Source of the DNA: a virus
Taxonomy: Duplodnaviria; Heunggongvirae; Uroviricota; Caudoviricetes
Strand: one strand, 5' to 3'
DNA: 64,000 bases
IMG/VR virus record: IMGVR_UViG_3300029911_000006
The translations under genes were made by a program, and so were the position numbers. This document shows, piece after piece, positions 47,876-60,364 of the stretch; within the stretch, counting starts at the first letter, position 1; every line of letters starts with the position of its first letter. A model generated the notes under the pieces. It ran no database searches. It was not told where the DNA came from and saw only the letters and a list, made by a program, of their open reading frames with translations.

Positions 47876-48433
47876 TTACCAAATCAGGTTATGCAGATTG
47901 AGGTACTTGGCGGGAACCGTGTCAGTCAGCCACACGCCATTAGGGGCAAGATAGAAGGATAAACCCTCTTCATGCATTGCGGCTGCATCGACAGGTACCA
48001 CTATAGGGTTACCATGTCGCGACCCTACTGTCCGTGCGGTGTCACACAGAGCGGAAAGATGGACGTGCTGCCGCTTGCCCTTGAGCAAGCCCTGCTTTTT
48101 GATTGAGTCGAGAAACCGGGTGGCGGTTCCGTGGTAGAGAATGCCGGGAGGGATAACGACCTCGTACTTCAGGTCTACCTCAATACTGTGACCTTGCACG
48201 GCCCGGATAGATTTTCCGTCGTCCGAGAACTGGAACCGCTTCTTGTCGTTGTCTTCCACGACTTCATCGAGTTCCTCGCGATTGATTTTATATCCCTTAC
48301 TCGCCAGACCAGTCAACAGGTTGGATACGGTACACCAACCATCTGAAGTAAGAGTGAGGGAAGCCTCTTCAGGTTTATGCCGGAGTACAAGACTCATGAA
48401 CCTGCTCGTTCGGACTAGGGCTTTGTTATCCAT
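47876..48433 (-). CDS. kptA: RNA 2'-phosphotransferase Tpt1/KptA
   Basis: Near-colinear match to E. coli KptA: SRFMSLVLRHKPE, DKKRFQFSDDGKSIRAVQGHS, LYHGTATRFLDSIKKQGL, HVHLS, NGVWLT. Confidence 0.9.
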   Translation of the reverse strand: MDNKALVRTSRFMSLVLRHKPEEASLTLTSDGWCTVSNLLTGLASKGYKINREELDEVVEDNDKKRFQFSDDGKSIRAVQGHSIEVDLKYEVVIPPGILYHGTATRFLDSIKKQGLLKGKRQHVHLSALCDTARTVGSRHGNPIVVPVDAAAMHEEGLSFYLAPNGVWLTDTVPAKYLNLHNLIW

Positions 48434-49322: not shown

Positions 49323-49409
49323 TGGTGACCCCGGCAGGATTCGAACCTGCGATGTGCTTTCACACGCGAGTTTAGGAAACTCGTGCCTTGTCCGCTAGAC
49401 TACGGGGTC
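49323..49409 (-). tRNA. tRNA with anticodon CCU (Arg) but a 16-nt class-II-type variable arm; A73
   Basis: Hand-folded: acceptor GACCCCG/CGGGGTC, D GTCT/AGGC, anticodon stem CGAGT/ACTCG with loop TTCCTAA, variable CGTGTGAAAGCACATC, T-arm GCAGG-TTCGAAT-CCTGC, CCA encoded. Confidence 0.65.
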
Positions 49410-49425
49410 AAACTTGTATTCTACT

Positions 49426-49680
49426 CTACAACCAATGCTTCAGGTAGTTGTCTGGGAACTTATTCTTGGAGCGAACCTCGGTGATGTCCGCTTCCGGGTC
49501 GCCCAACTTATCCAGAGCTACCAAGTCTTCAGCCAGACCGGCACGGTGACGGCTGTGAATGAACTTCTTCAGCCCTGCGGTGTTGCGGCGTTCGCCCTTC
49601 TTGCCGCAGCAAAAGTCGGCTCCCATCGCTGGGGGAAACTTCTCAGCCTTGAACCCGCGTTGGTGATTCGTCTTGCTCAT
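49426..49680 (-). CDS. hypothetical protein (84 aa)
   Basis: GGAGAGG Shine-Dalgarno. Confidence 0.5.
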   Translation of the reverse strand: MSKTNHQRGFKAEKFPPAMGADFCCGKKGERRNTAGLKKFIHSRHRAGLAEDLVALDKLGDPEADITEVRSKNKFPDNYLKHWL

Positions 49681-50020
49681 CGTCCTCTCCAGCTACTTCC
49701 TTGAGCGTATCCATGAAGTCCACCGGCTTCCAGCCAGCCGCTTCCATAATCTCCGGGAACGTACCGTTCGCCTTCTCCGTGGGAACAACCACCCACTCAC
49801 ATGCACAACCCGGCCACAGGCTGGGGAATATGCCTTGGTTCTCCATCTCCTCGGTCATCTCCACGCCGTCGAGAGCCGCCTGTCGGTCTTGCTTACACGA
49901 TCCACACATCCCAGCGAAGATGTACTCTTCTGCTGCTTCTTGAGACTCAAAGCCGGAGCGGGATGGGTTGGGCTCGTCAGATTCTCGTGCCGGGAGGTAC
50001 AGTGCGGAAAAATCAGGCAT
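49643..50020 (-). CDS. hypothetical acidic protein
   Basis: Track ORF. The start is uncertain. Confidence 0.35.
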   Translation of the reverse strand: MPDFSALYLPARESDEPNPSRSGFESQEAAEEYIFAGMCGSCKQDRQAALDGVEMTEEMENQGIFPSLWPGCACEWVVVPTEKANGTFPEIMEAAGWKPVDFMDTLKEVAGEDDEQDESPTRVQG

Positions 50021-50240
50021 TCGTATCACCAATCAGGTACAGGTTATTGTCGCTCGACCCACAAACTGCGATGCCGTCCAGATACCACTTACACTCTTGA
50101 GACCCGATGGTGCCGACCAGCCGGGGGCACTCTTCAAAATCCACCATGTGAAGGCTCGTTACCCTGCGCCCGTCCATTGTCTCCGCCTCGGTGATCCCTC
50201 GTGTCGGCACTACCACCGTACTTACATCTAGGTTATTCAT
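50013..50240 (-). CDS. hypothetical protein (75 aa from MNNLD)
   Basis: The track ORF was trimmed to avoid the tRNA-like gene. Confidence 0.4.
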   Translation of the reverse strand: MNNLDVSTVVVPTRGITEAETMDGRRVTSLHMVDFEECPRLVGTIGSQECKWYLDGIAVCGSSDNNLYLIGDTNA

Positions 50241-50252
50241 ACTAGCTAATAC

Positions 50253-50335
50253 TGGAGGGCGCGACAGGATTCGAACCTGCATTTTCAATTCCACTTACGT
50301 TTAACGACTTAGAAGGTCGCCTCGATTACACACCC
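50253..50335 (-). tRNA. tRNA-like gene with an Arg(UCU)-type anticodon arm; atypical or degenerate D region
   Basis: Clear T-arm GCAGG-TTCGAAT-CCTGT and CCA. Acceptor GGGTGTG/CGCGCCC with two G-U pairs. Anticodon arm GCGAC-CTTCTAA-GTCGT is identical to the tRNA at 56750..56825. The D arm is too short. Confidence 0.4.
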
Positions 50336-50341
50336 CAAAGG

Positions 50342-50539
50342 TTACGCTGCGATGTCTGTGGTTCTCTCGTTCTTGGATGACCTTACACACATCTTGGGTG
50401 CGTGAGACACGTTGACGAACGTGTCCCACTTCCCTTTGCACGCACACGTGTTGGGGTCTACCTTGTGCTCATCATCGCCCAGCAAGTCCTGCAACTTGGT
50501 CTGGCCGAAGAGCATACGTACGATAGGTGTGATAAACAT
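50342..50539 (-). CDS. small protein (65 aa)
   Basis: AGGAGAA Shine-Dalgarno. Confidence 0.5.
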   Translation of the reverse strand: MFITPIVRMLFGQTKLQDLLGDDEHKVDPNTCACKGKWDTFVNVSHAPKMCVRSSKNERTTDIAA

Positions 50540-50587
50540 ATGTGTTCTCCTGTCAGTTGAATTCGTTTATAATGCGTGGATGAAACA

Positions 50588-50809
50588 TCAGGATGCCTTG
50601 ACGAAGGTCCCGCCATCCAGAGCCTTGCGAATGTACCGCATGAGAGTAATGGCCTTCTCGGTTGAGTTCAAGGTGGCTCCGCCAATGTCTTCGAGCGAGA
50701 CGGGAAAGGCATATTCGACGCCATCCACCGTTACGTTGTAAAAGGCGTTACCCGTCCTATAGAACGAAAACCTTGCGGTGTTGTCCTTCACAATCTTCTT
50801 GATGTCCAT
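50588..50809 (-). CDS. hypothetical protein (73 aa from MDIKK)
   Basis: AGGAAGGATG Shine-Dalgarno. Confidence 0.45.
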   Translation of the reverse strand: MDIKKIVKDNTARFSFYRTGNAFYNVTVDGVEYAFPVSLEDIGGATLNSTEKAITLMRYIRKALDGGTFVKAS

Positions 50810-50885
50810 ATGCTCATCCTTCCTTTCAGTTTGACTACTCAGCCATGCAGCTTTGTCTAGACCTATGCCTCGGTCTGAGTGGCTT

Positions 50886-51104
50886 CTAACGATGTCCCTT
50901 ATCTCCGACACTCATGACTCCTTCAACGTACTGCTCTTGCAGATACCTGTCTACTTCTTGGTCAATCTCAGCCATGGACTTCATGATGAACGCTTCGGTT
51001 TCGAGGTCACCACGGTTATGGGCTTCAGCCGCCTTGTCCATCATGCTCGACTTTACGTAGGCCCGGATTTCTTCGAAGAGAGAGATTTTGTTTGCGTCTG
51101 CCAT
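50886..51104 (-). CDS. hypothetical protein (72 aa)
   Basis: Track ORF. Confidence 0.45.
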   Translation of the reverse strand: MADANKISLFEEIRAYVKSSMMDKAAEAHNRGDLETEAFIMKSMAEIDQEVDRYLQEQYVEGVMSVGDKGHR

Positions 51105-51157
51105 ACTCTCTAATACGGAGACTCAGGGGAGTCTTACGACTCCCCCTCGTGATTGCC

Positions 51158-51727
51158 CTAGTGGTCGAGTTCTACGTTCCAGTAAGCCCAAGATGCCTTT
51201 TCAGCGTACAACCACTGCTGCCACTCAGTCCACTCAGGCCGAATCTGCTTGATGTGGAGTTTGAAATTGAACTTCGGGTCGTCAACCTTCGGTACGAACG
51301 GCTGACGGAGCAGCGGCATACGAGCCTGTTCAGGCGTCATGCCAGCCTTCGCCTTGTTGCAGCGAGAGCAAGCGGCTACGACGTTAGTCCAGACAGTGAT
51401 ACCACCCTGACACCGGGGCTTGACGTGCTCCACCTGAAACTCCTGAGTGGAGACGTGCTTACCGCAGTATTGGCAAGTACCCTCGTCACGCATGTAGATG
51501 TTGCGACGAGAACACGGAACAGCAAGGCGACGACGCTTGTGCCAAGCGTTCTTTACCTGAATGACACGGGGCATACCCATCTCGAAAGAAGGGCTGCGAA
51601 GCATCCGCCCACCCTCATCTTCCTTGACGATGTTAGCGCGGTCTTCCCAGTACAGCTTGACCGCATTCTTCCAACTCATGAAGCCAACCGGCTTCCAGTT
51701 TATGTCCAAAACGAGAGTGTCATTCAT
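51158..51727 (-). CDS. HNH endonuclease (McrA-like)
   Basis: CQYCGK...EHVKPRCQGG...NVVAACSRCNKAK. Confidence 0.7.
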   Translation of the reverse strand: MNDTLVLDINWKPVGFMSWKNAVKLYWEDRANIVKEDEGGRMLRSPSFEMGMPRVIQVKNAWHKRRRLAVPCSRRNIYMRDEGTCQYCGKHVSTQEFQVEHVKPRCQGGITVWTNVVAACSRCNKAKAGMTPEQARMPLLRQPFVPKVDDPKFNFKLHIKQIRPEWTEWQQWLYAEKASWAYWNVELDH

Positions 51728-51820
51728 AGAACGCTCCTATCACCTAATGCTGTTTCATGTTGTCCCCCTTGCACGGGTGGGTTCTCGCGAACCCTTCTTC
51801 GGATGGTGTTGCAACTACAG

Positions 51821-52252
51821 TCAAACTCTTTCGACGGAAATCAGGTTCCCGCCCTCGAAGACGGCATTGTACTCAAACCACTCCGCCTCCGGTACTTCAA
51901 TCTCATTGCCCTCGTCATCCCTCGTGGTGGTCTTGCCTTCCGCGAAGTTGACGAAGAATAGCATCCCGCTATTTGCATCGCCGTAAAAGTTCAAGGTGCC
52001 GGTAAAGTCTACGAGGCCCCAGCAGATGTGAATCCGGGTCATGCATCCGACCAGCTTCATCAAGCCTTCGGCGTTCGGGTCGGAACGGTCTTCAACGTCG
52101 TAGTCCGATAGCACCAACTGGCCTTGCTCAGTAATCTGGTAGTCGTCAAAGAACCCAAGGTCAACCAAGCTCTTCGTCTGGAACTCTATACCAGAGGGGT
52201 CGGGCAATCCCGGTAGTGGGTACTCGCAACGTATTTTATCATACATACCCAT
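51821..52252 (-). CDS. hypothetical protein (143 aa)
   Basis: Track ORF. Confidence 0.5.
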   Translation of the reverse strand: MGMYDKIRCEYPLPGLPDPSGIEFQTKSLVDLGFFDDYQITEQGQLVLSDYDVEDRSDPNAEGLMKLVGCMTRIHICWGLVDFTGTLNFYGDANSGMLFFVNFAEGKTTTRDDEGNEIEVPEAEWFEYNAVFEGGNLISVERV

Positions 52253-52258
52253 AAGTTT

Positions 52259-52334
52259 TTGGTGCAGACGGTGGGAGTTGAACCCACAACCATTCGATTA
52301 AGAGTCGAGTGCTCTGCCAGTTGAGCTACGTCTG
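52259..52334 (-). tRNA. tRNA-Lys (anticodon CUU)
   Basis: Acceptor GCAGACG/CGTCTGC, D GCTC/GAGC, anticodon loop CTCTTAA, T-arm GTGGG-TTCAACT-CCCAC, CCA. Confidence 0.85.
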
Positions 52335-52352
52335 CGTCTCCTACTATAGGGT

Positions 52353-52730
52353 CTAAAAGCTTTCAATTCGTTCAACCACGTCGCTGTCCCAAATGCATCC
52401 ACTAGCACAGTCCCACGTGTAATACCACATCATAGACAGCCGGTGCCGCCGCTGGTACGGGGCGATGATGATGCCCTGATACTTGGCTGCTACCTTCTTC
52501 CATTCAATACCCGTTGCACTGGGAAACTGTAAGGAAGTAAATCGGTAATTCTCAGCAAAATCTTCTAGCTGGGACTCGGTGGAGATGTGGAGGATGTTGG
52601 CGTCAGGCTTGAGTACGACCCTATGCACCAGCTTACCGATACCAAAATCCTCCGCAGCACACCAACTGGCCCAGTCATGTTCGCCCTGCACCGAAACCCA
52701 AAGCGGGTTTATACTGCCAGCCTTCCCCAT
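52353..52730 (-). CDS. hypothetical protein (125 aa)
   Basis: Track ORF. Confidence 0.5.
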   Translation of the reverse strand: MGKAGSINPLWVSVQGEHDWASWCAAEDFGIGKLVHRVVLKPDANILHISTESQLEDFAENYRFTSLQFPSATGIEWKKVAAKYQGIIIAPYQRRHRLSMMWYYTWDCASGCIWDSDVVERIESF

Positions 52731-52798
52731 CTAGTTGCTTCCGCGACCATACATTCAGGAGAGGTTGATTGCTGTGGTGCAGAAGAATCATGACATCC

Positions 52799-53647
52799 TC
52801 AGAAATCGTTGTCGAGTGGAGGAAGAACTTCCGCTCTCGCCAACCTCTCTTGTCTCCAAGAGTTTATCATGCCCTCAAGTGCTCTTACAACAGAATTCAT
52901 GTCGCACTTGTAGAACCCCGCACTCGCCGTCGAGTTCACTTCGAGTACACTACACTCATCGCCGGTTATACTTACATCAAGTACATACGTGGCCGAGATG
53001 GGTGTCTCTCCAAGCTCCGCCATCCTCTGTGCGAACTGCATCATCGGATAGAAGAATGCGTTGGTGGAGTCTATCCTCGCGTACATTACCTCGCCGAAAC
53101 TACGGTACACACTTCCCGTTACAACCCTGCCGTCCACGACGAAGAATCTTGCCTCGTGGTCAATCGGCTTCGGTGGTGCGAACATAACCGGGGTGTCTCC
53201 TGTGATGGAGCAGTACCCTGTCTTTGCCAGTTCAACGATACGGTCACGCCAAGGCACCATGTCCTCCGGCGTCATCAGACCACCGTTGAATACCTTGGTG
53301 TCATGCACCGGGCGGACGAACATCGGCTCCGTGAAGTCCATCTCACTGAACTTGCAGTACGTCGCGTCGTGGTTGAAGAAGTTGCGACCGAACCGTACTC
53401 CGTGCTGCTGCATGTCGAACTCAGGGCCTTGAAACGCACCGGGCTTCCAGCCACGCTCAGTAGCGATACGGGCCAACCCCATCGAGCCCCAGACCATCAC
53501 ATCCTCATCCGGGTCGAAGTCTACCTCTGGCTGCAAATGCTCCCGGACGCTGACGATGGTGTACTTGCTGTCGTTCGCATCCAATGCGTCGAGCAGCCCT
53601 TTGAAACCGAACTCGTTGAACAACCCTGCCTGTACTACGTGCTGCAT
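52799..53647 (-). CDS. hypothetical protein, tentatively ATP-grasp-like (282 aa)
   Basis: RFFVVDGRVVTGSVYR...VLDVSITGDECSVLEVN blocks resemble an ATP-grasp C-terminal domain, like 34650..35438. Confidence 0.35.
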   Translation of the reverse strand: MQHVVQAGLFNEFGFKGLLDALDANDSKYTIVSVREHLQPEVDFDPDEDVMVWGSMGLARIATERGWKPGAFQGPEFDMQQHGVRFGRNFFNHDATYCKFSEMDFTEPMFVRPVHDTKVFNGGLMTPEDMVPWRDRIVELAKTGYCSITGDTPVMFAPPKPIDHEARFFVVDGRVVTGSVYRSFGEVMYARIDSTNAFFYPMMQFAQRMAELGETPISATYVLDVSITGDECSVLEVNSTASAGFYKCDMNSVVRALEGMINSWRQERLARAEVLPPLDNDF

Positions 53648-53814
53648 ATCTTCCCTTCCAACTCTTGAAACCTTTCCCACTTCGGGCCGTTGTAAATGAG
53701 ATGGTAGCCACCCCACATGCCCAGAACTTGAAGTCCGTAATACTCTAAGGTCTCTTCCTTGCTGAGACCCGGCAGCGGATACGTTGGGGTCTCCCGTACG
53801 TATTCTTCACTCAT
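53635..53814 (-). CDS. small protein
   Basis: Track ORF. GAGG Shine-Dalgarno. Confidence 0.4.
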   Translation of the reverse strand: MSEEYVRETPTYPLPGLSKEETLEYYGLQVLGMWGGYHLIYNGPKWERFQELEGKICST

Positions 53815-54046
53815 CAGTCTTATCCTCGGAAGCGTCTTCCGTCCATTGCACTGAAGCTCGTTCCACATTCAACGATAGCCCGTCGAGAAACAACATTACC
53901 TCGCTCCTTAGTTCCGCAGAGTCGAAGCGGTCGTACTTGTCCGAGACATCCAGCGTTAGGGTAAACTTTCTCATAGTGATAGATACGTCACTTTCTTCCT
54001 TCAAACATGCAAAAAGTGAGATTGCTCTCACTCCTTGGTCGAACAA
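53807..54046 (-). CDS. hypothetical acidic protein (79 aa)
   Basis: Track ORF. Confidence 0.45.
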   Translation of the reverse strand: MFDQGVRAISLFACLKEESDVSITMRKFTLTLDVSDKYDRFDSAELRSEVMLFLDGLSLNVERASVQWTEDASEDKTDE

Positions 54047-54050
54047 AACT

Positions 54051-54125
54051 TGGCTCCCAGTGAGGGACTCGAACCCCCAACCATACGGTTAACAGCCGTA
54101 AGCTCTGCCATTGAGCTAACTGGGA
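54051..54125 (-). tRNA. tRNA-Asn (anticodon GUU)
   Basis: Acceptor TCCCAGT/ACTGGGA, D GCTC/GAGC, anticodon stem TACGG/CCGTA with loop CTGTTAA, T-arm GGGGG-TTCGAGT-CCCTC, CCA. Confidence 0.85.
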
Positions 54126-54134
54126 ACATCTCTT

Positions 54135-54198
54135 TGCGGGGCAGACATTGAACCTGCGACCTCTCGGTTAGCCTCCGACATCTAGGCACCCGCAATCC
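54135..54198 (-). other. tRNA-like fragment (T-arm-like GCAGG-TTCAATG-TCTGC plus acceptor-like TTGCGGG/CCCGCAA); about 62 nt, too short for a tRNA
   Basis: Hand-folded. Probably a degenerate tRNA remnant. Confidence 0.3.
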
Positions 54199-54379
54199 TT
54201 TTGACCCACTTCTTTTCCTTGTCGTTCCATACTCTACGCTTAGAGTACCAACCGGAACGGAAGTGCATCACTATTACTGTCATCCCCCAGTGGCGTGTAC
54301 CCAGCCATCCGATGAGGGTAAGAAACAGTCCGTCGATGAAGTCTACTACATCCTCGGGTTGACGTAACTGTCTCAACAT
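54182..54379 (-). CDS. small protein (65 aa)
   Basis: Track ORF. Confidence 0.4.
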   Translation of the reverse strand: MLRQLRQPEDVVDFIDGLFLTLIGWLGTRHWGMTVIVMHFRSGWYSKRRVWNDKEKKWVKRIAGA

Positions 54380-54421
54380 ATCTTGGTTGCGGAGGTTGGG
54401 TTGGATGTCTTACCACATTTT

Positions 54422-54498
54422 TGGTTGGGAGAGCAGGGATCGAACCTGCAAACCTCTCGGGTCAGAACCGAGTGTTCTACCAATTGAACTATCTCCCA
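54422..54498 (-). tRNA. tRNA-Gln (anticodon CUG)
   Basis: U1-A72 acceptor TGGGAGA/TCTCCCA, anticodon stem CTCGG/CCGAG with loop TTCTGAC, T-arm TGCAG-GTTCGATCC, CCA. Confidence 0.8.
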
Positions 54499-54505
54499 AT
54501 AACTT

Positions 54506-54582
54506 TGGTACCTCGGGTCGGATTTGAACCGACGATTTCCTCCTTATGAGAGAGGCGTCTTAGACCGCTGGACGACCGAGGC
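54506..54582 (-). tRNA. tRNA-Met (anticodon CAU; elongator or Ile2-type)
   Basis: Anticodon stem CCTCT/GGAGG with loop CTCATAA, T-arm GTCGG-TTCAAAT-CCGAC, CCA. Confidence 0.8.
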
Positions 54583-54583
54583 A

Positions 54584-55258
54584 CTACATTACTTGGGCTA
54601 AGTCGGTTCCACCTTTAGAGTTCAGACGGACATTGCGTTCCTTAGCCCATGCACTTACAACCTTGGATAACTTCCTACCCCTGCCCTTACCCATGTTCAT
54701 CCCCCTATACGTGGGGGTCAGTGAGTGACAATTAGGACAAAGCAACCTACAATTACTATAGCTGTTATTGTAGCAATCCCCATCTACATGTTCGAGTTCA
54801 ATTGGAACTGTGAGGGATTTGGGGTTCACTTTACTCCACCCACAGTCCTCGCATTTCCTTCCCCGCTCAATTATCAGATAACCTTTGGCTGATCGTTCCG
54901 ATGGAACTATTACTCCTGACTTCCATTTTACTAGTAGTACAGCCCGTCTTCTATCCCACGACTGCTTCGACTGTTTCCCTCCCTCCCTCGAAGCACATTT
55001 CCTAGAGCAGTGCCTCTGAGACAGCTTACCGTGGGTAAACGAACCGCCACATGTAATACACGTTTTATCATGACAACAGGAAGGCTTATTGAGGAGCCCC
55101 GATGTATTGCGTCTATCAACAAGTTCTTCCTTACTTAGGGGGTAATCACGTAACCATAAACTGGCAGAACCCTTGGCTACTCCCAGTCGAAGCGCAATTT
55201 CTTTCAATGAAAGCCGATTCTGTACCCTCAGTGTAATTGCTTCATTCTGTTTTTCCAT
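54584..55258 (-). CDS. HNH homing endonuclease with an N-terminal HTH domain
   Basis: IELEHVDGDCYNNSYSNCRLLCPNCHS. It is embedded between tRNA genes. Confidence 0.7.
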   Translation of the reverse strand: MEKQNEAITLRVQNRLSLKEIALRLGVAKGSASLWLRDYPLSKEELVDRRNTSGLLNKPSCCHDKTCITCGGSFTHGKLSQRHCSRKCASREGGKQSKQSWDRRRAVLLVKWKSGVIVPSERSAKGYLIIERGRKCEDCGWSKVNPKSLTVPIELEHVDGDCYNNSYSNCRLLCPNCHSLTPTYRGMNMGKGRGRKLSKVVSAWAKERNVRLNSKGGTDLAQVM

Positions 55259-55340
55259 TAATCTTCGCATTTGAACCCCCTATAAGAGGTATGCGATAGT
55301 CGAAAAACCAGCATGACTAACCTACTGTAGGTACAAATTA

Positions 55341-55416
55341 TGGTGGGGCCGTTCGGCATCGAACCGAAATCTCACCGCTTAAAAGGCGGGACTCTAGCCA
55401 TTTGAGTTACAACCCC
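55341..55416 (-). tRNA. tRNA-Lys (anticodon UUU)
   Basis: Acceptor GGGGTTG/CGGCCCC (two G-U pairs), D ACTC/GAGT, anticodon CCGC-CTTTTAA-GCGG, T-arm TTCGG-TTCGATG-CCGAA, CCA. Confidence 0.75.
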
Positions 55417-55457
55417 GAATTTGGGCAAACGTTTCATATAGTTCCTTTGCAAAACTT

Positions 55458-55534
55458 TGGTGCGCCGGGGTGGATTCGAACCACCGTCATCTCGGGTAAG
55501 GGCCGAGTATAATAATCCGCTATACGACCGACGC
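55458..55534 (-). tRNA. tRNA with a non-canonical anticodon loop CCCUUAC (C at position 33; anticodon possibly CUU)
   Basis: Good acceptor GCGTCGG/CCGGCGC, D GTAT/ATAC and T-arm GGTGG-TTCGAAT-CCACC with CCA. Anticodon stem CTCGG/CCGAG. Confidence 0.55.
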
Positions 55535-55554
55535 AAAACTGGTACATCTAAACT

Positions 55555-55641
55555 TGGTGCGTCCGGAGGGATTCGAACCCCCGTTGGGAATCTCTCCCGC
55601 TGATTAAGAGTCAGGTGCATAAGCCACTCTGCCACGAACGC
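55555..55641 (-). tRNA. tRNA with anticodon CUU (Lys) on a class-II body (long variable arm GGGAGAGATTCCC; A73)
   Basis: Acceptor GCGTTCG/CGGACGC, 3-bp D stem (Leu-like), anticodon CTGA-CTCTTAA-TCAG, T-arm GGGGG-TTCGAAT-CCCTC, CCA. Confidence 0.55.
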
Positions 55642-55728
55642 ATATCCCTGTAAGCGGTACAATTGTGCCGGATACAGCTAAAACTAGGCTTTATCGGTAA
55701 CATACTACCGGTATTGCCGACATCAAAC

Positions 55729-55802
55729 TTGGCTCGGTCTCAGGGGGTCGAACCCCGGTTTCTAGGGTCAGAACCTAGCGTCCTACCACTGAACGAAGAC
55801 CG
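55729..55802 (-). tRNA. tRNA-Gln (anticodon CUG), second copy
   Basis: U1-A72 acceptor TCGGTCT/AGACCGA, anticodon stem CTAGG/CCTAG with loop TTCTGAC, T-arm CGGGG-TTCGACC-CCCTG, CCA. Confidence 0.75.
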
Positions 55803-55818
55803 AACATGTGGAACTAAA

Positions 55819-55918
55819 CTGGTGCGGGTGGGGAGATTCTCACGTCCCCGTGGCACCTTACCCTCTGAGCGTCAAGACGTGAGTGTGTCGCGACTCAGAT
55901 AGAGGGCACCTACCCCGC
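55819..55918 (-). ncRNA. about 100-nt tRNA-like or structured RNA ending in ACCA, with non-canonical arms
   Basis: 3' ...CACCCGCACCA pairs with 5' GCGGGGT over 5 bp. Internal hairpins CTGAG..CTCAG and GGGGA..TCCCC. No canonical TpsiC loop. Confidence 0.3.
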
Positions 55919-55935
55919 ATACTGTGCTACTAAAC

Positions 55936-56026
55936 TGGCTCAGGGGGAGGGACTCGAACCCTCAGAGGGAATGGCTACCCGCTTGGTTAACAGCCAAGTA
56001 CGCTGCCAGTTACGTTTTACCCCTGA
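55936..56026 (-). tRNA. tRNA with anticodon GUU (Asn) on a class-II body (18-nt variable arm; G73)
   Basis: Acceptor TCAGGGG/CCCCTGA, 3-bp D stem, anticodon stem CTTGG/CCAAG with loop CTGTTAA, variable CGGGTAGCCATTCCCTCT, T-arm GAGGG-TTCGAGT-CCCTC, CCA. Confidence 0.55.
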
Positions 56027-56263
56027 ACATCTCTGCTACTAAACTTAGGCCGACTCTCTCTTCGGCGTCACACCACTTCAACTAAGACACATGCCTTCTA
56101 CGCTTCTAACGTAGGCTTTCATGTACGTTCATCGCCGAAGCGAAACGCCGGGTAGGTGTCACCCTTCTTGTGCTACTAAACCGGGAGGGCTTGGGATTTC
56201 ACGAACGTTCCACAGACGGGAGCTACCCGCCAGATGTCTATCCGTCCCTCTTAGTCCCTTTCG

Positions 56264-56331
56264 TTCACTTGGCGGGAGTCGAACCCGCATCAGCCGCCAA
56301 CGCGGCTGCTCTACCATTGAGCTACAAGCAA
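56264..56331 (-). pseudogene. defective tRNA-like gene (good D and T arms and acceptor, but anticodon hairpin CAGCCGC-gttg-GCGGCTG with a 4-nt loop; no CCA)
   Basis: Hand-folded. Only about 19 nt separate the D and T arms. Confidence 0.35.
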
Positions 56332-56354
56332 CTAAGGAACCTCAACTCAAACTA

Positions 56355-56429
56355 TGGCTGGCAAGGCCGGATTCGAACCGACACCTTCTCCGGTAACAGC
56401 GGAGCATCATACCATTAGACCACTTGCCA
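56355..56429 (-). tRNA. tRNA with anticodon GUU (Asn-type), imperfect D stem
   Basis: Acceptor TGGCAAG/CTTGCCA, anticodon stem CTCCG/CGGAG with loop CTGTTAC, T-arm GTCGG-TTCGAAT-CCGGC, CCA. Confidence 0.55.
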
Positions 56430-56749
56430 ACAACTCTCACCCGGTGCTCCCGGACAGCGGACTTACTCAGTTCCGGTCGAATGGGTACGATGCCGGAACA
56501 CTGCCTCTGCTGGAGGATTTACACGCATGACCTCCATTGAACTTATCGGGCACTGACTTCTAAAGCTACATCCGGCCAACGCCGCATGGTGACCAACCCT
56601 CTCGTCACATCCCCGGATTACGAGTCCGGTGCTTTGTTCAGACTCATCACGTAGGTTCCAGCCCTCGTGAATCTGTCTAGGTCTAGTCGTGACCAACGGC
56701 TGGAACCACTGGTGCCCGAAACCGAGACGGATGTTCTCGCCTCAAAACT

Positions 56750-56825
56750 TGGTGCCCCCGGTAAGAATCGAACTCACATCCACGACTTAGAAGGTCGGTG
56801 TCCTTGTCCGTTGAACGACGGGGGC
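56750..56825 (-). tRNA. tRNA-Arg (anticodon UCU)
   Basis: Acceptor GCCCCCG/CGGGGGC, D GTTC/GGAC, anticodon stem CGAC/GTCG with loop CTTCTAA, T-arm GTGAG-TTCGATT-CTTAC, CCA. Confidence 0.8.
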
Positions 56826-56888
56826 TGTTATCAGGGATTGAACTCAGATCATAAATGAAAATACTATCTGACTTTAAACCCCTTGAGT

Positions 56889-57533
56889 ATGCAAACTAAA
56901 ACAAAAGTCACTTGCCTAACTTGCCAAGTAGAATTTGAAAAGGCTGAAGCTGAAATCCGTAGATCATCTCCCGGTCGTAACTTCTGCTCACGTTCCTGCT
57001 CAGCCAAACTCCGTCGTGGTCTTCAAAGAAACCCACCAAAACCTCGTACTTGTAAATCCTGCGGGGCTGAGTTTACATGCTCAACATCCCACCGGTCTTA
57101 CACCTTCTGCTCCCCATGTTCTGGAAACAAGGAACATCTACTTACTCCCCACCTTCGGCTACGCAAACGCCACGGGTCTAATGAGTATATCCGAGTAGAC
57201 TTCCGCCTTATGACTCTTGAAGAGGCGATGAATTCACCTTATGTAAAAGGCAAGCACCGTAGCCACATCTATGATTTCGTCAGGCGGTTCAACCGTTCAT
57301 GGAACAAACACCTTCTCAAACTACCTTGCTTGTACTGTGGTTATAGTAAGCACAGTGAACTTGCTCACATCAAAGGCATAAAAACCTTCTCACTTGATTC
57401 TACTCTCGGCGAAATCAACAATGTCAGCAACGTCTTACCTCTGTGTCGTAACTGCCACTGGGAGTTTGATAACGACCTCCTATCGCTTGAAACCATAAAG
57501 TTGGTGCGCCCGAGAGGATTCGAACCTCTGTAG
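56889..57533 (+). CDS. HNH homing endonuclease (plus strand) in an AT-richer island
   Basis: CLYCGYSKHSELAHIKG...NVLPLCRNCHWEFD. Its last about 10 codons read into the 3' end of the tRNA at 57502..57590. Confidence 0.6.
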   Translation: MQTKTKVTCLTCQVEFEKAEAEIRRSSPGRNFCSRSCSAKLRRGLQRNPPKPRTCKSCGAEFTCSTSHRSYTFCSPCSGNKEHLLTPHLRLRKRHGSNEYIRVDFRLMTLEEAMNSPYVKGKHRSHIYDFVRRFNRSWNKHLLKLPCLYCGYSKHSELAHIKGIKTFSLDSTLGEINNVSNVLPLCRNCHWEFDNDLLSLETIKLVRPRGFEPL

Positions 57534-57590
57534 AGAACTCTCGTTCAACAGATTCGTAGTCTGGTGCCTCATCCGCTAGGCTACGGGCGC
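57502..57590 (-). tRNA. tRNA with anticodon ACG (Arg) and an 18-nt variable arm
   Basis: Acceptor GCGCCCG/CGGGCGC, D GCCT/AGGC, anticodon stem CCAGA/TCTGT with loop CTACGAA, variable TGAACGAGAGTTCTCTAC (GAAC/GTTC stem), T-arm AGAGG-TTCGAAT-CCTCT, CCA. Confidence 0.6.
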
Positions 57591-57876
57591 ATATATTTTG
57601 CACATCCTGTTCGTAGCAGGTAAAGGCAAGTACTGTGCCTTGTTCTTAGGATGTGGGCGAGAATGCTGAACTCCCTGTCCACCCCTCCCGGCCTTTCAAC
57701 CGAGAGCATCCTGATTGCTCGGAACCTTTTCCAGTGTCGTCGCGACGACCCACTTGCAAGTGGTGAAGGTATCGAACCTCCTCGGAACCGTCTTGGCTTG
57801 TGCGGCCAGCATTTACTGACATATCCGGGCTATCACGCCCGATGAGGCACATCGCCTCCCCTTTCACACAAAGACT

Positions 57877-57966
57877 TGGTGTACCCGGCAGGACTCGAAC
57901 CTGCATGAGACTTTCGTCAGCCCACCTTCGGAGGGTGGCGGCTAATCCAATTCACACCACGGGTAC
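57877..57966 (-). tRNA. tRNA with anticodon CCG (Arg) and a 17-nt variable arm
   Basis: Acceptor GTACCCG/CGGGTAC, anticodon stem CCACC/GGTGG with loop CTCCGAA, variable GCTGACGAAAGTCTCAT, T-arm GCAGG-TTCGAGT-CCTGC, CCA. Confidence 0.6.
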
Positions 57967-58233
57967 AAAACGACGGTGCTTTGCGAAGCTCCTCACCATT
58001 CCGTGAGGCAGGGTTGGTTACCCGCGTCTTCCGTCTAACTCAAAAGTAAGGTGGGGGTCTTCACTTCCCGAACGTCGTCCGCTACCAGTGTCACAGCCGC
58101 CCTAATACTTCCGGCTACGCCTTTGCCTTACTGATGCTTCTAGCATAGGTTCTGGCGGTTGATTCCCTGTACCAGTTTCCCGGTACCGGTCTTTTATCCC
58201 TTGCGGGTACCGCTACGCCCATGCCAAAACTTT

Positions 58234-58308
58234 TGGGGGGCAATCCGGGAATCGAACCCGAGTAACCGATGCCACAGATCGGCGTTCTGCCACTGAACTA
58301 ATCGCCCC
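58234..58308 (-). tRNA. tRNA-His (anticodon GUG) with a genomically encoded G-1
   Basis: Extra 5' G opposite discriminator C73. Acceptor GGGCGAT/ATTGCCC, anticodon stem CCGAT/ATCGG with loop CTGTGGC, T-arm TCGGG-TTCGATT-CCCGG, CCA. Confidence 0.85.
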
Positions 58309-58332
58309 ACATCTTTTCAAAACTTTGCCTTT

Positions 58333-58408
58333 TGGCGGGGGAGCCGGGATTTGAACCCGGAAAAATGGTTTTGGAGACCATCGGTTTGCCAGTTGAGCCT
58401 ACTCCCCC
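58333..58408 (-). tRNA. tRNA-Trp (anticodon CCA)
   Basis: Acceptor GGGGGAG/CTCCCCC, anticodon stem ATGGT/ACCAT with loop CTCCAAA, T-arm CCGGG-TTCAAAT-CCCGG, CCA. Confidence 0.8.
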
Positions 58409-58460: not shown

Positions 58461-58492
58461 ACAACGAAAAACCCTAGCCGCTTTGGCTAGGG
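58461..58492 (-). terminator. intrinsic terminator (CCCTAGCC-aaagc-GGCTAGGG followed by TTTTTCG)
   Basis: 8-bp perfect stem followed by a U-tract on the minus strand. It isolates upstream transcription from the tRNA array. Confidence 0.65.
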
Positions 58493-58526
58493 TCTGTAAT
58501 TCTAATCTCGGTTGGTGCTTAGGTGA

Positions 58527-60133: not shown

Positions 60134-60364
60134 TCAGTTACCAGAAAATGGTGATGGAGTAGTACCAGCCACCGGCAGTGCCGGGTGCGTCGGGGGTAGC
60201 TCCTTCCAGCAATTCAGGGGGCTGTCGTTGTACTGCTTCTCGTTTTCAGTGAGAGCCTCACCTACCTTGTCTACTATCGAGCAGACGGCCAGACCACACA
60301 TCTCACAGCAGCGGCGGACTGAGCCGAAGGGCTGACCGTTCTGCGTTACCAAGTGGAGGCTCAT
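60134..60364 (-). CDS. small Cys-containing protein (76 aa)
   Basis: ATGA overlap with the upstream gene. Confidence 0.4.
   Translation of the reverse strand: MSLHLVTQNGQPFGSVRRCCEMCGLAVCSIVDKVGEALTENEKQYNDSPLNCWKELPPTHPALPVAGTTPSPFSGN

What the first reader, a model, noticed from the sequence alone, without database searches (positions are those of the whole stretch)
49323..58408. tRNA array in which several tRNAs combine class-II long variable arms with Arg, Lys or Asn anticodons
Hand folding gives canonical tRNAs (Lys-CUU, Lys-UUU, Asn-GUU, Gln-CUG x2, Met-CAU, Arg-UCU, His-GUG with encoded G-1, Trp-CCA). At least five further genes with good acceptor, D and T arms and CCA carry 16-18-nt stem-loop variable arms: anticodons CCU (49323..49409), CUU (55555..55641), GUU (55936..56026), ACG (57502..57590) and CCG (57877..57966). 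In bacteria long variable arms define Leu, Ser and Tyr identity largely independently of the anticodon. These tRNAs could therefore be mischarged (deliberate mistranslation of AGG, AAG, AAC or CGN codons), could be decoys for host anticodon nucleases or synthetases, or could represent a novel viral tRNA architecture. Degenerate copies also occur: 50253..50335, 54135..54198, 55458..55534 with a C33 loop, 56264..56331 with a 4-nt anticodon loop, and a 100-nt ACCA-ending RNA at 55819..55918.
Basis: seen in the sequence. Interest (0 to 1): 0.7.

Follow-up and report, generated by a model that had tools for sequence, protein, structure and literature searches.

The report
Extra-armed Arg, Lys, Asn phage tRNAs
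A peat-soil phage carries real, conserved tRNA genes for arginine, lysine and asparagine that have the extra stem-loop normally found only in leucine, serine and tyrosine tRNAs. They keep the recognition marks of their own amino acid, and similar genes turn out to be widespread in phages and in mobile tRNA gene arrays, apparently without having been described.

Summary
ARAGORN and Rfam both call five tRNAs with 16-18-nt variable stem-loops: Arg-CCU, Lys-CUU, Asn-GUU, Arg-ACG and Arg-CCG. They sit in a 17-gene minus-strand array with encoded CCA ends.

They are not degenerate copies. Orthologues occur in related phage-like contigs whose proteins are only 54-68% identical, often next to a canonical copy of the same anticodon. 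They also occur in Acidobacteriaceae tRNA arrays. The variable-arm helix is kept by compensatory changes.

The mischarging reading is mostly not supported.
- The acceptor stem and discriminator follow the anticodon's amino acid: A20 in all three Arg tRNAs, U1:A72 with G73 in Asn, and G-1 with C73 in the long His of relatives.
- The arm has tyrosine-type geometry (3-4 bp, about 3 unpaired 3' bases), not serine-type.
- The codons read (AAG, AAC, CGN) are the phage's most used.
- Only Lys-CUU has a Tyr-like core that leaves dual charging possible.

Best reading: these are cognately charged isoacceptors built on a class-II core, part of a mobile tRNA pool. What the arm does is unknown. Evasion of host tRNA-targeting defence is my inference, prompted by the RNA-repair genes nearby. 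I found no published description of this tRNA type.

The parts
49323..58408 (-). tRNA gene array: 17 ARAGORN tRNAs plus tRNA-like RNAs, interspersed with homing-endonuclease ORFs and small ORFs
57877..57966 (-). tRNA-Arg(CCG), long arm. It has a Leu-type D loop (GAAUUGGAUUAG) with A after the G18G19 pair. The variable arm is GAC-GAAA-GUC followed by CAU. Discriminator A73, encoded CCA.
   Evidence: ARAGORN; Rfam 37.6 bits; relatives L013 17994-18081 and L238 5118-5210 share the D arm
57502..57590 (-). tRNA-Arg(ACG), long arm. It has a 4-bp D stem and A20. The variable arm is GAAC-GAGA-GUUC followed by UCUAC. A73, CCA.
   Evidence: (56.5 bits); homologue L258 4914-5002 has the stem GAGC/GCUC, a compensatory change
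55936..56026 (-). tRNA-Asn(GUU), long arm. U1:A72, G73. The variable arm is GGG, an 8-nt loop, CCC, then UCU.
   Evidence: (37.1 bits); orthologues L013 18473-18560 and L218 1479-1569
55555..55641 (-). tRNA-Lys(CUU), long arm. It has a 3-bp D stem, U8 G9 and a Tyr-like core. The variable arm is GGGA-GAGAU-UCCC followed by AAC. A73, CCA.
   Evidence: (51.6 bits); 92% and 87% identical to L016 and L013; isotype scoring
49323..49409 (-). tRNA-Arg(CCU), long arm. It has a 4-bp D stem and A20. The variable arm is GUGU-GAAA-GCAC followed by AUC. A73, CCA.
   Evidence: (56.6 bits)
58333..58408 (-). tRNA-Trp(CCA), canonical, first gene of the array
58234..58308 (-). tRNA-His(GUG), canonical, with encoded G-1 (58308) and C73
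56750..56825 (-). tRNA-Arg(UCU), canonical
56355..56429 (-). tRNA-Asn(GUU), canonical
56263..56331 (-). tRNA-like gene with a shortened anticodon loop and no CCA
   Evidence: ARAGORN 'tRNA-???'; Rfam 52.6 bits; fold
55819..55918 (-). 100-nt ACCA-ending structured RNA with an acceptor-like stem, a T-like hairpin and a long hairpin. It is not a tRNA by Rfam or ARAGORN.
55730..55803 (-). tRNA-Gln(CUG), canonical
55458..55534 (-). tRNA-Lys(CUU), standard length, with C33 and C38 in the anticodon loop
   Evidence: orthologues with CUCUUAA
55341..55416 (-). tRNA-Lys(UUU), canonical
54506..54582 (-). tRNA-Met(CAU)
54422..54498 (-). tRNA-Gln(CUG), canonical
54051..54125 (-). tRNA-Asn(GUU), canonical
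52260..52335 (-). tRNA-Lys(CUU), canonical
   Evidence: 70.5 bits
50253..50335 (-). weak tRNA-like gene with an Arg-UCU-type loop, no D arm, a 23-nt variable region and CCA
   Evidence: Rfam 32.8 bits; fold
56883..57533 (+). HNH endonuclease ORF inside the array, antisense to the 3' end of Arg-ACG(L)
   Evidence: Pfam HNH_2; gene call in L002
54584..55270 (-). 228-aa ORF inside the array. It has a weak N-terminal Sigma70_r4-type helix-turn-helix match. I read it by eye as a homing-endonuclease-like ORF, and no endonuclease family was matched.
51158..51727 (-). HNH endonuclease ORF
   Evidence: Pfam HNH/HNH_5
52799..53647 (-). R2K-family ATP-grasp ORF inside the array, also present in the array of L011
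56525..56725 (-). conserved structured non-tRNA RNA of about 190 nt between Arg-UCU and Asn
58469..58495 (-). terminator-like hairpin with a U tract just upstream of the array
60361..61347 (-). RlaP nucleotidyltransferase (RNA repair), 2 kb upstream of the array
47876..48433 (-). Tpt1/KptA RNA 2'-phosphotransferase
13620..14645 (-). RNA ligase
   Evidence: PHROG 24030
833..2179 (-). tRNA nucleotidyltransferase (CCA-adding enzyme)
   Evidence: PHROG 2244

Best explanation
The five long genes are functional phage tRNAs of a conserved type. Each has a class-II core, meaning a variable stem-loop of tyrosine-tRNA geometry and often a class-II D arm. Onto that core are grafted the acceptor stem, discriminator and anticodon of a normally class-I amino acid.

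They are transcribed with the rest of the array and cut out of the transcript. They need no CCA addition because CCA is encoded. They are charged by the host's ArgRS, LysRS and AsnRS (or by the Asp-then-amidation route for Asn). They then read the phage's own abundant codons: CGN, AGG, AAG and AAC.

They belong to a horizontally moving pool of tRNA genes shared by phages and the long tRNA arrays of Acidobacteriaceae, the probable hosts. In that pool, long and canonical versions of one anticodon replace or accompany each other.

**Shown:** the genes, the fold, conservation, covariation, and the distribution of identity elements.

**Inferred:** cognate charging and use in translation.

**Least certain:** why the arm is kept. 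My preferred reading is that it makes these copies structurally unlike ordinary class-I tRNAs of the same isotype. They would then be poor substrates for host tRNA-targeting nucleases or toxins.
For: **The genes and the position of the arm.**

**Orthologues.** Relatives were found through RlaP homologues at 54-68% protein identity.
- L013 and L016 carry canonical-plus-long pairs for Trp, His, Asn, Lys-CUU and Lys-UUU; L013 also has an Arg-ACG pair.
- Each also carries a long Gln, and L013 a long Arg-CCG.
- Lys-CUU(L) is 87-92% identical across these relatives.

**Covariation in the variable-arm helix.**
- In 21 long Lys tRNAs the two main arm pairs show four or five pair types each and are 97.6% paired. 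For the whole cloverleaf, 0 of 500 shuffles reached the observed values, and slid controls fell to 33-45% paired.
- The Arg arms differ in sequence but all pair: GAAC/GUUC versus GAGC/GCUC, GACUG/CGGUC versus GACUC/GGGUC, and GAC/GUC versus CCC/GGG versus GAGGC/GCCUC.

**Identity elements.**
- An A follows G18G19 in all Arg(L) tRNAs but not in Lys(L) or Asn(L) (sequence).
- The long His of relatives has an encoded G-1 and C73.
- N73 equals the modal N73 of short tRNAs of the same isotype in 101 of 116 unique long tRNAs. Among those where it is not A: Asn 14/14 G, His 3/3 C, Trp 3/3 G, Thr 7/8 U, Gly 2/2 U.
- Isotype scoring with the anticodon and arm hidden (78% cross-validated accuracy) ranks Arg first for all three Arg(L) and Asn first for Asn(L).
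- Acceptor stem plus N73 scores as cognate rather than Tyr in 48/50 Lys, 14/14 Asn, 6/7 Arg, 3/3 His, 5/5 Gln, 3/3 Trp and 8/8 Thr.

**Arm geometry.** The stem is 3-4 bp in 114 of 129, with 3-4 unpaired 3' bases in 100 of 129. Only 5 of 129 are Ser-like, against 93 of 161 true Ser tRNAs.

**Interchangeability.** The slot between Pro and Trp in acidobacterial arrays holds a 77-nt Arg-ACG in most genomes and an 89- or 93-nt one in L258 and L238. In those arrays an 87-89-nt tRNA is the only Lys-UUU gene.

**Codon use.** In the window's genes AAG is 84% of Lys codons, AAC is 75% of Asn codons, and CGU plus CGC are 53% of Arg codons.

**Context.** The phage encodes an RNA ligase, Tpt1, RlaP and a CCA-adding enzyme. 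These are described as an RNA-repair set that counters tRNA nucleases in jumbo phages (PMC7824862).
Against: - No aminoacylation or expression data exist.
- Lys-CUU(L) scores slightly better as Tyr than as Lys overall (-41.4 against -44.0). It shares A73 and U35 with tRNA-Tyr, so TyrRS could compete for it.
- Arg-CCG(L) has a Leu-like D loop with A15:U48 and A73.
- The known anticodon nucleases I can recall act mainly on the anticodon stem-loop, so an extra arm is not an obvious shield against them.
- The extra arm could simply be tolerated rather than useful.
- Long forms occur in many isotypes (Ile, Thr, Pro, Val, Cys, Met, Gly). The link to known nuclease targets is therefore loose.
- The isotype models are home-made from phage tRNAs and are not tRNAscan-SE.
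Confidence: 0.6

Rival explanations
1. Neutral relic of tRNA remoulding. Duplicated tRNA-Tyr or tRNA-Leu genes in fast-evolving arrays changed anticodon and acceptor identity, and the arm stayed only because the synthetases, EF-Tu and the ribosome tolerate it. The arm has no function of its own, and pairing is conserved only to keep the tRNA folded.
For: - The Lys(L), His(L) and some Gln(L) cores score as Tyr or Leu, while their acceptor ends are cognate.
- The phage tRNA-Tyr in L130 has almost the same D arm and anticodon stem as Lys-CUU(L).
- Long and short versions are gained and lost among close relatives.
- Long forms are scattered over many isotypes at 1-14%.
Against: - Arg(L), Asn(L) and Trp(L) have cognate-like bodies, so their arm looks added rather than inherited.
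- Canonical-plus-long pairs for five or six anticodons are kept in both L013 and L016.
- The arm geometry is uniformly Tyr-type whatever the origin of the body.
Confidence: 0.2
2. Handle for phage-encoded enzymes. The arm marks a separate tRNA pool served by viral synthetase-like proteins, or used for a non-ribosomal aminoacyl transfer.
For: - A 191-aa minimal HisRS-like ORF lies next to the His pair, and an ArgRS-like ORF follows the array, in L013 and L016.
- The mini-HisRS co-occurs with the long His in L013, L016 and L218. The long His is missing from the window and from L011; the mini-HisRS has no tblastn match in the window, and no synthetase-domain ORF was called in L011's array.
- An R2K ATP-grasp ORF sits inside the array.
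Against: - No homologue of either synthetase-like ORF is present in the window, although it holds three long Arg tRNAs.
- Acidobacterial arrays carry long Lys and Arg tRNAs with no such genes seen in the loci examined.
- The co-occurrence rests on three related contigs.
Confidence: 0.1
3. Decoys. The long tRNAs soak up host anticodon nucleases, toxins or synthetases and are not themselves used in translation.
For: - The array also holds tRNA-like genes that cannot decode: 56263-56331 and 50253-50335.
- Some defence nucleases recognise the variable region of tRNA-Tyr (PMC13096335 and PMC12673091, seen).
Against: - In the window the long genes are the only decoders of CGN and AGG.
- In acidobacterial arrays the long gene is the only Lys-UUU.
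- Full identity sets, canonical 7-nt anticodon loops with U33, and encoded CCA are all kept.
Confidence: 0.06
4. Deliberate mistranslation. SerRS, LeuRS or TyrRS charge these tRNAs, so that AAG, AAC, CGN or AGG codons are read as Ser, Leu or Tyr.
For: - Serine identity relies mainly on the arm and not on the anticodon. Leucine identity needs A73, not the anticodon (PMC9976931).
- Lys-CUU(L) has a Tyr-like core.
- Arg-CCG(L) has a Leu-like D loop with A15:U48.
- Precedent: nematode nev-tRNAs are charged with Leu (PMC3333845).
Against: - Discriminator and acceptor stems are cognate across the family.
- A20 is present in every Arg(L).
- The arm geometry is not Ser-like.
- The Levitt pair is G15:C48 rather than the Leu-type A15:U48 in four of the five (read from the sequence).
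- The affected codons are the phage's most used, for example 734 AAG among about 13,400 codons.
Confidence: 0.04

Closest known systems
Bacterial tRNA-Tyr (class II)
   Same: The variable arm has a 3-4 bp stem and about 3 unpaired bases on its 3' side. Lys-CUU(L) also shares the 3-bp D stem, U8 G9, A73, U35 and anticodon-stem sequence with phage tRNA-Tyr genes.
   Different: The anticodons are Arg, Lys and Asn. The acceptor stems score as the anticodon's isotype, not as Tyr. The Arg tRNAs carry A20.
nev-tRNAs: nematode (and other eukaryotic) V-arm-containing tRNAs with Gly or Ile anticodons (PMC3333845, PMC4300185)
   Same: Class-II-shaped tRNAs whose anticodon is not Leu, Ser or Tyr.
   Different: nev-tRNAs are reported to be misacylated with Leu. 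Here the acceptor end and discriminator follow the anticodon, the hosts are bacteria and phages, and the arm is Tyr-type.
allo-tRNAs of Acidobacteria, Clostridia and Proteobacteria (PMC5389517)
   Same: A long variable arm, diverse non-Ser anticodons, occurrence in soil and peat Acidobacteria and in tRNA polycistrons, and association with toxin-antitoxin genes.
   Different: allo-tRNAs have 8/4 or 9/3 acceptor/T stems and a G73 or U73 serine identity. The tRNAs here have the standard 7/5 arrangement and cognate discriminators.
Phage tRNAs that evade tRNA-targeting defences (T5 tRNAs against retron effectors and other systems, PMC11555353; Septu cleaving tRNA-Tyr, PMC13096335)
   Same: Phage-encoded extra copies of particular isoacceptors, RNA-repair genes nearby, and homing endonucleases in the array.
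   Different: As far as I know, the described evasion works through anticodon-loop or stem differences. No case with an added variable arm turned up in my searches.
[quoted passage not shown]
   Same: Same-strand arrays of up to about 30 tRNA genes with homing endonucleases, found here on Acidobacteriaceae MAG contigs up to 1.46 Mb. These arrays hold homologues of the window's long Lys and Arg tRNAs.
   Different: In the passages I searched, that paper does not mention long-armed Lys, Arg or Asn tRNAs. The window itself is a phage, with RIIA/RIIB and RNA-repair genes.

Membership tests
tRNA (Rfam RF00005) | Covariance-model score at or above the gathering score of 29 bits over the full model | tested here: met
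   56.6, 51.6, 37.1, 56.5 and 37.6 bits for the five long genes, model positions 1-71
tRNA (Rfam RF00005) | 7-bp acceptor stem, 5-bp anticodon stem with a 7-nt loop and U33, 5-bp T stem with a UUCRANY loop | tested here: met
   ARAGORN structures
Class II (type II) tRNA | Variable region longer than 10 nt that forms a stem-loop | tested here: met
   16-18 nt with 3-5 bp stems; helix supported by covariation
Class II (type II) tRNA | Class-II-type D arm: 3-bp stem and an enlarged D loop | tested here: inconclusive
   Present in Lys-CUU(L), Arg-CCG(L) and Asn(L). Arg-CCU(L) and Arg-ACG(L) keep a 4-bp stem with an 8-nt loop.
Class II (type II) tRNA | Leu, Ser, Tyr (or Sec) anticodon | tested here: not met
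   The anticodons are CCU, CUU, GUU, ACG and CCG
tRNA-Ser identity | Long arm of Ser geometry (stem of 5 bp or more, at most 1 unpaired 3' base) with G73 | tested here: not met
   Four of the five have A73. Asn(L) has G73 but a 3-bp stem and 3 unpaired bases. Family-wide, 5 of 129 are Ser-like against 93 of 161 Ser tRNAs.
tRNA-Leu identity (E. coli rules, PMC9976931) | A73 with an A15:U48 Levitt pair and A20a | tested here: not met
   A73 is present in four. A15:U48 can be read only in Arg-CCG(L). The base after position 20 is U or C, not A (sequence). Numbering is inferred by eye.
tRNA-Tyr identity | A73 with a GUA anticodon (G34, U35) | tested here: not met
   No GUA anticodon. Lys-CUU(L) keeps only A73 and U35.
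tRNA-Arg identity (PMC9976931) | A20, C35, U or G at 36, A or G at 73 | tested here: met
   All three Arg(L) have an A after G18G19, C35 and A73. They score best as Arg with the anticodon hidden.
tRNA-Asn identity (general knowledge: GUU anticodon, G73; U1:A72 for the GatCAB route) | G73 and U1:A72 | tested here: met
   all 11 long Asn in that listing have G73 and 10 of 11 have U1:A72; 14 of 14 have G73 over all sets.
tRNA-Lys identity (general knowledge: U35, U36, A73) | U35, U36, A73 and a Lys-like acceptor stem | tested here: met
   The acceptor region scores as Lys over Tyr in 48 of 50 long Lys tRNAs. The whole body still scores as Tyr over Lys.
allo-tRNA | 8/4 or 9/3 acceptor/T-stem arrangement | tested here: not met
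   All five are 7/5
Actual aminoacylation with the cognate amino acid | Charged by ArgRS, LysRS or AsnRS in vivo | not testable with these tools
   Needs biochemistry

The most novel reading that the evidence does not exclude
Phages and mobile tRNA arrays maintain a second, parallel tRNA set built on a tyrosine-type class-II core. The extra arm acts as a discriminating tag. It either insulates these tRNAs from host tRNA-targeting immunity, or couples them to virus-encoded minimal synthetases such as the mini-HisRS and ArgRS-like ORFs seen beside the arrays of relatives. Either way the result would be a partly orthogonal viral decoding system.
Probability: 0.25. Interest if true: 0.9.

Novelty: new variant of a known kind. 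Interest (0 to 1): 0.75.

Why it matters
Textbook bacterial tRNA biology reserves the long variable arm for Leu, Ser, Tyr and Sec. Here a whole series of other isotypes carries it while keeping cognate identity marks: Arg, Lys and Asn in this window, and His, Trp, Gln, Thr, Ile and others elsewhere. These genes are conserved and recurrent in phages and in horizontally spread tRNA arrays.

This would matter in three ways if confirmed.
- Many synthetases, of both classes, tolerate a class-II core in nature. That bears on tRNA evolution and on the design of orthogonal tRNAs.
- It gives a concrete structural feature to test in the phage-host conflict over tRNAs.
- Annotation pipelines may be mislabelling or discarding such genes. 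A cultured Caulobacter phage already carries an 87-nt 'tRNA-Lys'.

Tried and rejected
**Searches that found nothing useful.**
- Megablast of the array against cultured phages gave no match.
- Back-translated patterns from the ATP-grasp ORF gave no match in IMG/VR.
- An exact 24-mer of Lys-CUU(L) gave no match in IMG/VR.
- blastn of Arg-ACG(L) against cultured phages matched only T-arm and acceptor fragments.

**No population diversity.** The ten contigs that carry the identical ATP-grasp protein are 99.95-100% identical to the window, so they offer no variation to analyse.

**Ideas dropped.**
- The extra bases as an intron or a D-loop expansion. Rfam and ARAGORN place them between positions 44 and 48.
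- Long forms restricted to amino acids with nitrogen in the side chain (Trp, His, Arg, Asn, Lys, Gln in this clade). The same phage has a long Ile-UAU just outside the window, and other phages have long Thr, Pro, Val, Cys, Met and Gly.
- Synthetase genes in the window. tblastn with the HisRS-like and ArgRS-like ORFs of relatives found nothing.

**A correction to my own reading.** I first took the metagenome contigs to be jumbo phages. The genome scan shows the same arrays on megabase Acidobacteriaceae MAG contigs, so their origin is left open.

**Other limits.**
- Rfam at E<=1 names none of the conserved intergenic RNAs.
- The promoter scan gave no more sites than shuffled sequence.
- Ten literature searches found no description of long-armed Arg, Lys, Asn, His, Trp or Gln tRNAs in phages. 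The library lacks most subscription journals.

Full report

Yes. ARAGORN tRNA genes on the minus strand between 49323 and 58408. Five of them are 87-91 nt long and carry anticodons that are not Leu, Ser or Tyr:
- Arg-CCU, 49323-49409
- Lys-CUU, 55555-55641
- Asn-GUU, 55936-56026
- Arg-ACG, 57502-57590
- Arg-CCG, 57877-57966

Rfam's tRNA model scores them at 56.6, 51.6, 37.1, 56.5 and 37.6 bits against a gathering score of 29. Its printed alignments (Arg-CCU and Arg-ACG among the long genes) put the extra bases as one insertion between the anticodon stem and the T stem. ARAGORN's structures show standard 7-bp acceptor, 5-bp anticodon and 5-bp T stems, a 7-nt anticodon loop with U33, and an encoded CCA. 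Each has a 16-18-nt variable region that forms a 3-5 bp hairpin. Plain free-energy folding finds the fifth hairpin unaided in three of the five.

The 'degenerate copies' fare unevenly.
- 55458-55534 is a good tRNA body with a C33/C38 anticodon loop.
- 56263-56331 is a good tRNA body with a shortened loop and no CCA.
- 50253-50335 is a weak tRNA-like hit (32.8 bits).
- 54135-54198 and the 100-nt RNA at 55819-55918 are not tRNAs by either tool.

**2. What is the element?**

The window is phage DNA. It encodes RIIA and RIIB, a DNA polymerase family protein, an RNA ligase, a CCA-adding enzyme, an RlaP nucleotidyltransferase and a Tpt1/KptA 2'-phosphotransferase. HNH endonuclease ORFs and an R2K ATP-grasp ORF sit inside the array.

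Over the 20.8 kb compared, the window is identical to a 74.5-kb JGI metagenome contig, and near-identical contigs occur in at least nine other samples. These give no sequence diversity. That contig runs past the window's end. There the same phage carries four Ser tRNAs, a Met, a Leu-UAA and a 95-nt Ile-UAU.

**3. Are the long tRNAs conserved?**

Yes. Homologues of the RlaP protein at 54-68% identity led to three related contigs: L011 (75.6-kb contig), L013 (405 kb) and L016 (55.9 kb).

Their syntenic arrays contain the same kind of genes.
- L013 carries adjacent canonical-plus-long pairs for Trp, His, Arg-ACG, Asn, Lys-CUU and Lys-UUU, and also a long Arg-CCG and a long Gln.
- L016 has nearly the same set.
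- L011 has only a long Gln.

Lys-CUU(L) is 92% and 87% identical to its L016 and L013 orthologues, although the flanking proteins are about 55-60% identical.

The arm's helix is maintained by compensatory change. In an alignment of 21 diverse long Lys tRNAs, RNAalifold predicts the arm. Its two main pairs show four or five different pair types each and are 97.6% paired. The cloverleaf as a whole beats all 500 column shuffles and all slid controls.

The Arg arms differ in sequence but always pair, and most are capped by GNRA tetraloops:
- GAAC/GUUC in the window against GAGC/GCUC in L258
- GACUG/CGGUC in L013 against GACUC/GGGUC in L218
- GAC/GUC, CCC/GGG and GAGGC/GCCUC in the second body type

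**4. How widespread is it?**

*Viral contigs.* A pattern scan of IMG/VR returned 120 loci. ARAGORN found 66 long tRNAs with non-Leu/Ser/Tyr anticodons in them: Lys, Asn, Ile, Thr, Pro, Gln, Val, Cys, Met, His, Trp, Gly, Arg and Glu. Among neighbouring tRNAs that my pattern did not select, long forms make up 1-14% of an isotype. Asn, Cys, Ile and Lys are highest, and Ala, Asp and Phe have none.

*Cultured phages.* Caulobacter phage CcrBL9 and its relatives have an annotated 87-nt tRNA-Lys(CUU).

*Metagenomes and bacterial genomes.* A metagenome scan and a scan of GTDB species genomes found arrays of about 30 tRNA genes in which an 87-89-nt tRNA is the only Lys-UUU gene. Many lie on Acidobacteriaceae or Terracidiphilus MAG contigs of up to 1.46 Mb, several of them from peat. 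These look like the horizontally spread 'L-arrays' described in PMC8421152. One has a HipA toxin gene beside it.

These arrays contain close homologues of the window's genes:
- a Lys-CUU(L) with the same acceptor stem and D arm (L220)
- an Arg-ACG(L) homologous to 57502-57590 (L258)
- an Arg-ACG(L) with the D arm of the window's Arg-CCG(L) (L238)
- a long Asn (L249)

The slot between Pro and Trp holds a canonical 77-nt Arg-ACG in most genomes and the long gene in L238 and L258. This indicates that the two forms are interchangeable. It also makes Acidobacteriaceae the likely host, which is an inference.

**5. Which amino acid do they carry?**

This cannot be measured here, but the identity elements can be read.

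For Arg, the main determinants are A20, C35 and A or G at 73 (PMC9976931). In all three Arg(L) genes the base after G18G19 is A, as it is in the canonical Arg-UCU. In Lys(L) and Asn(L) that base is C. Asn(L) has U1:A72 and G73. The long His of relatives has an encoded G-1 and C73.

Across all unique long non-Leu/Ser/Tyr tRNAs collected up to that point, the discriminator equals the usual discriminator of short tRNAs of that isotype in 101 of 116. Where that base is not A, the counts are Asn 14/14, His 3/3, Trp 3/3, Thr 7/8 and Gly 2/2.

I built simple position-specific isotype models from about 1,380 phage and array tRNAs, hiding the anticodon and the arm. Five-fold cross-validated accuracy was 78%.
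- The window's three Arg(L) and its Asn(L) score best as Arg and Asn.
- Lys-CUU(L) scores best as Tyr, with Lys second.
- The long His of relatives scores best as Leu.

Splitting the score by region resolves this. Acceptor stem plus discriminator is cognate in nearly every case, for example Lys over Tyr in 48 of 50. The D arm, and for Lys, His, Gln and Thr the anticodon stem, is Tyr- or Ser-like. A phage tRNA-Tyr (L130) has almost the same D arm and anticodon stem as Lys-CUU(L) but a different acceptor stem.

The arm itself has tyrosine-tRNA geometry:
- The stem is 3-4 bp in 114 of 129.
- There are 3-4 unpaired 3' bases in 100 of 129.
- Only 5 of 129 have serine geometry, against 93 of 161 real Ser tRNAs.

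Serine identity rests mainly on the arm and ignores the anticodon, so this geometry is what one would expect if Ser mischarging were being avoided. That last step is my inference.

Finally, the codons these tRNAs read are the phage's favourites. AAG makes up 84% of Lys codons, AAC 75% of Asn codons, and CGU, CGC and CGG together 74% of Arg codons. Systematic mistranslation would therefore damage the phage itself.

**6. Mechanism**

*Shown.*
- The genes, their fold, their conservation and covariation.
- The chimeric make-up: cognate ends on a class-II core.
- Co-occurrence with canonical copies, and interchangeability with them.

*Inferred.*
- They are co-transcribed with the array. A terminator-like hairpin at 58495-58469 closes the upstream unit. 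A recurring AGUUU trailer follows CCA in about ten of the 17 genes by eye.
- They are processed, charged by the cognate synthetases and used in translation.

*Open.* What the arm is for is not known.

I favour a role as a structural mark that makes these copies poor substrates for host tRNA-targeting nucleases or toxins. My reasons are these:
- The phage invests in RNA ligase, Tpt1, RlaP and a CCA-adding enzyme (PMC7824862).
- Parallel canonical and long sets are kept.
- Defence nucleases that read the variable region of tRNAs exist (PMC13096335 and PMC12673091, seen).

This step is weak. The classical anticodon nucleases I know of act on the anticodon stem-loop, and long forms occur in many isotypes.

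The main rival is that the arm is a tolerated relic of tRNA remoulding from Tyr or Leu duplicates. A third possibility is a handle for virus-encoded synthetase-like proteins. A minimal HisRS-like ORF co-occurs with the long His in L013, L016 and L218, and an ArgRS-like ORF follows the array in L013 and L016. Neither is present in the window.

**7. Comparison with what is known**

These genes are tRNAs. They have class-II shape, but they fail the class-II anticodon criterion.
- They are not allo-tRNAs. They have 7/5 stems rather than 8/4 or 9/3, and cognate discriminators rather than the G73 or U73 of serine identity (PMC5389517).
- They are not like nev-tRNAs, which are reported to be charged with Leu (PMC3333845).
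- They resemble bacterial tRNA-Tyr in core architecture only.

Ten full-text searches found no description of such tRNAs in phages or bacterial arrays. The library misses most subscription journals, so prior description cannot be excluded.

**8. Verdict**

Mischarging and decoy roles are unlikely for the Arg and Asn genes and remain an open minority possibility for Lys-CUU(L) and Arg-CCG(L).

I rate this as a new variant of a known kind, with high interest. It is conserved and widespread, it contradicts a textbook regularity, and it can be tested directly in a cultured Caulobacter phage.

Noticed in passing
window 56525-56725 (-): A structured RNA of about 190 nt lies between tRNA-Arg(UCU) and tRNA-Asn. 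It is closed by an 8-bp stem (UCGGGCAC...GUGCCCGA) and has several hairpins. One looks like an anticodon arm, with loop CUCGUAA here and CUCAUAA in L013. It is 82-88% identical in L013, L218 and L011, where proteins are only about 60% identical. Single-base indels argue against coding. Rfam gives no hit at E<=1.
   Followed up: partly
window 57967-58233, 57591-57876, 56027-56262 (-): The other long gaps in the array are also conserved in relatives. One has 72 nt at 98.6% identity to L016, one has 224 nt at 94% to L218, and one has 95-116 nt at 83% to L016 and L218. They fold into stable structures. They match no Rfam family and are not paralogues of each other.
   Followed up: partly
window 55819-56181 and after most tRNA 3' ends (-): There are recurrent spacer motifs. 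(A)AGUUU follows the CCA of about ten of the 17 tRNAs by eye. GUUUAGUAGCA occurs three times, at 56181, 56044 and 55935, and also in L013 and L016. Many 5' leaders end in AUGU or AUAU. These are probably processing signals of the polycistronic transcript.
   Followed up: partly
window 55819-55918 (-); L013 18561-18666; L016 17469-17691: The slot after the long Asn holds a 100-nt ACCA-ending tRNA-like RNA in the window. In L013 and L016 the same slot holds a different tRNA-like RNA, with a 7-bp acceptor stem, G73, CCA, a 9-nt 'anticodon' loop (UUUUCGCGA) and a 10-nt T loop.
   Followed up: partly
L138 4545-4639 (about window coordinate 68,300, outside the window); also L058, L075, L080, L093, L124, L219: The same phage has a 95-nt tRNA-Ile(UAU). 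Its variable-arm loop reads CAGAUUA, which contains GAU, the anticodon of the major tRNA-Ile. The motif CCAGAUUAG or CCAGAUAAG recurs in the arm of long Ile-UAU tRNAs from several unrelated viral contigs. It might mimic an anticodon loop for IleRS.
   Followed up: no
L013 17019-17594 and 20013-20846; L016 15422-15925 and 19204-19610; L218 1-147: Relatives encode a 191-aa minimal class-II HisRS-like core inside the array and an ArgRS-like ORF with an HVGH motif right after it. The HisRS-like ORF covers positions 18-134 of the 308-position Pfam HisRS profile. The mini-HisRS co-occurs with the long, Leu-bodied tRNA-His in three of three contigs.
   Followed up: partly
L220-L289, for example L256, L267, L281, L243: Acidobacteriaceae and Terracidiphilus MAG contigs up to 1.46 Mb carry arrays of about 30 tRNA genes in conserved order. 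Their only Lys-UUU gene is 87-89 nt long. One array has a HipA toxin gene next to it. Whether these bacteria also have a canonical housekeeping tRNA-Lys(UUU) was not checked.
   Followed up: partly
L137 5995-6081 (Caulobacter phage CcrBL9, MH588546 81826-81912): A cultured phage has an annotated 87-nt tRNA-Lys(CUU) with a class-II-type D arm, next to three Leu tRNAs. Its discriminator is U rather than A, and its arm pairs poorly. It is a possible experimental entry point.
   Followed up: partly
window 55458-55534 (-): This standard-length tRNA-Lys(CUU) has C33 and C38 (loop CCCUUAC). Its orthologues in L013 and L016 have the usual CUCUUAA. The change is fixed in all sampled contigs. It could be a dying gene or an anticodon-loop variant of the kind reported to evade nucleases.
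   Followed up: no
window 56883-57533 (+): An HNH endonuclease ORF runs antisense into the 3' end of tRNA-Arg(ACG)(L), overlapping it by roughly 26-32 nt depending on the stop/gene call used. This fits homing-endonuclease-driven turnover of array genes.
   Followed up: no
window 13620-14645 (-): The RNA ligase ORF also matches HNH endonuclease families at its N-terminus (residues 9-60).
   Followed up: no
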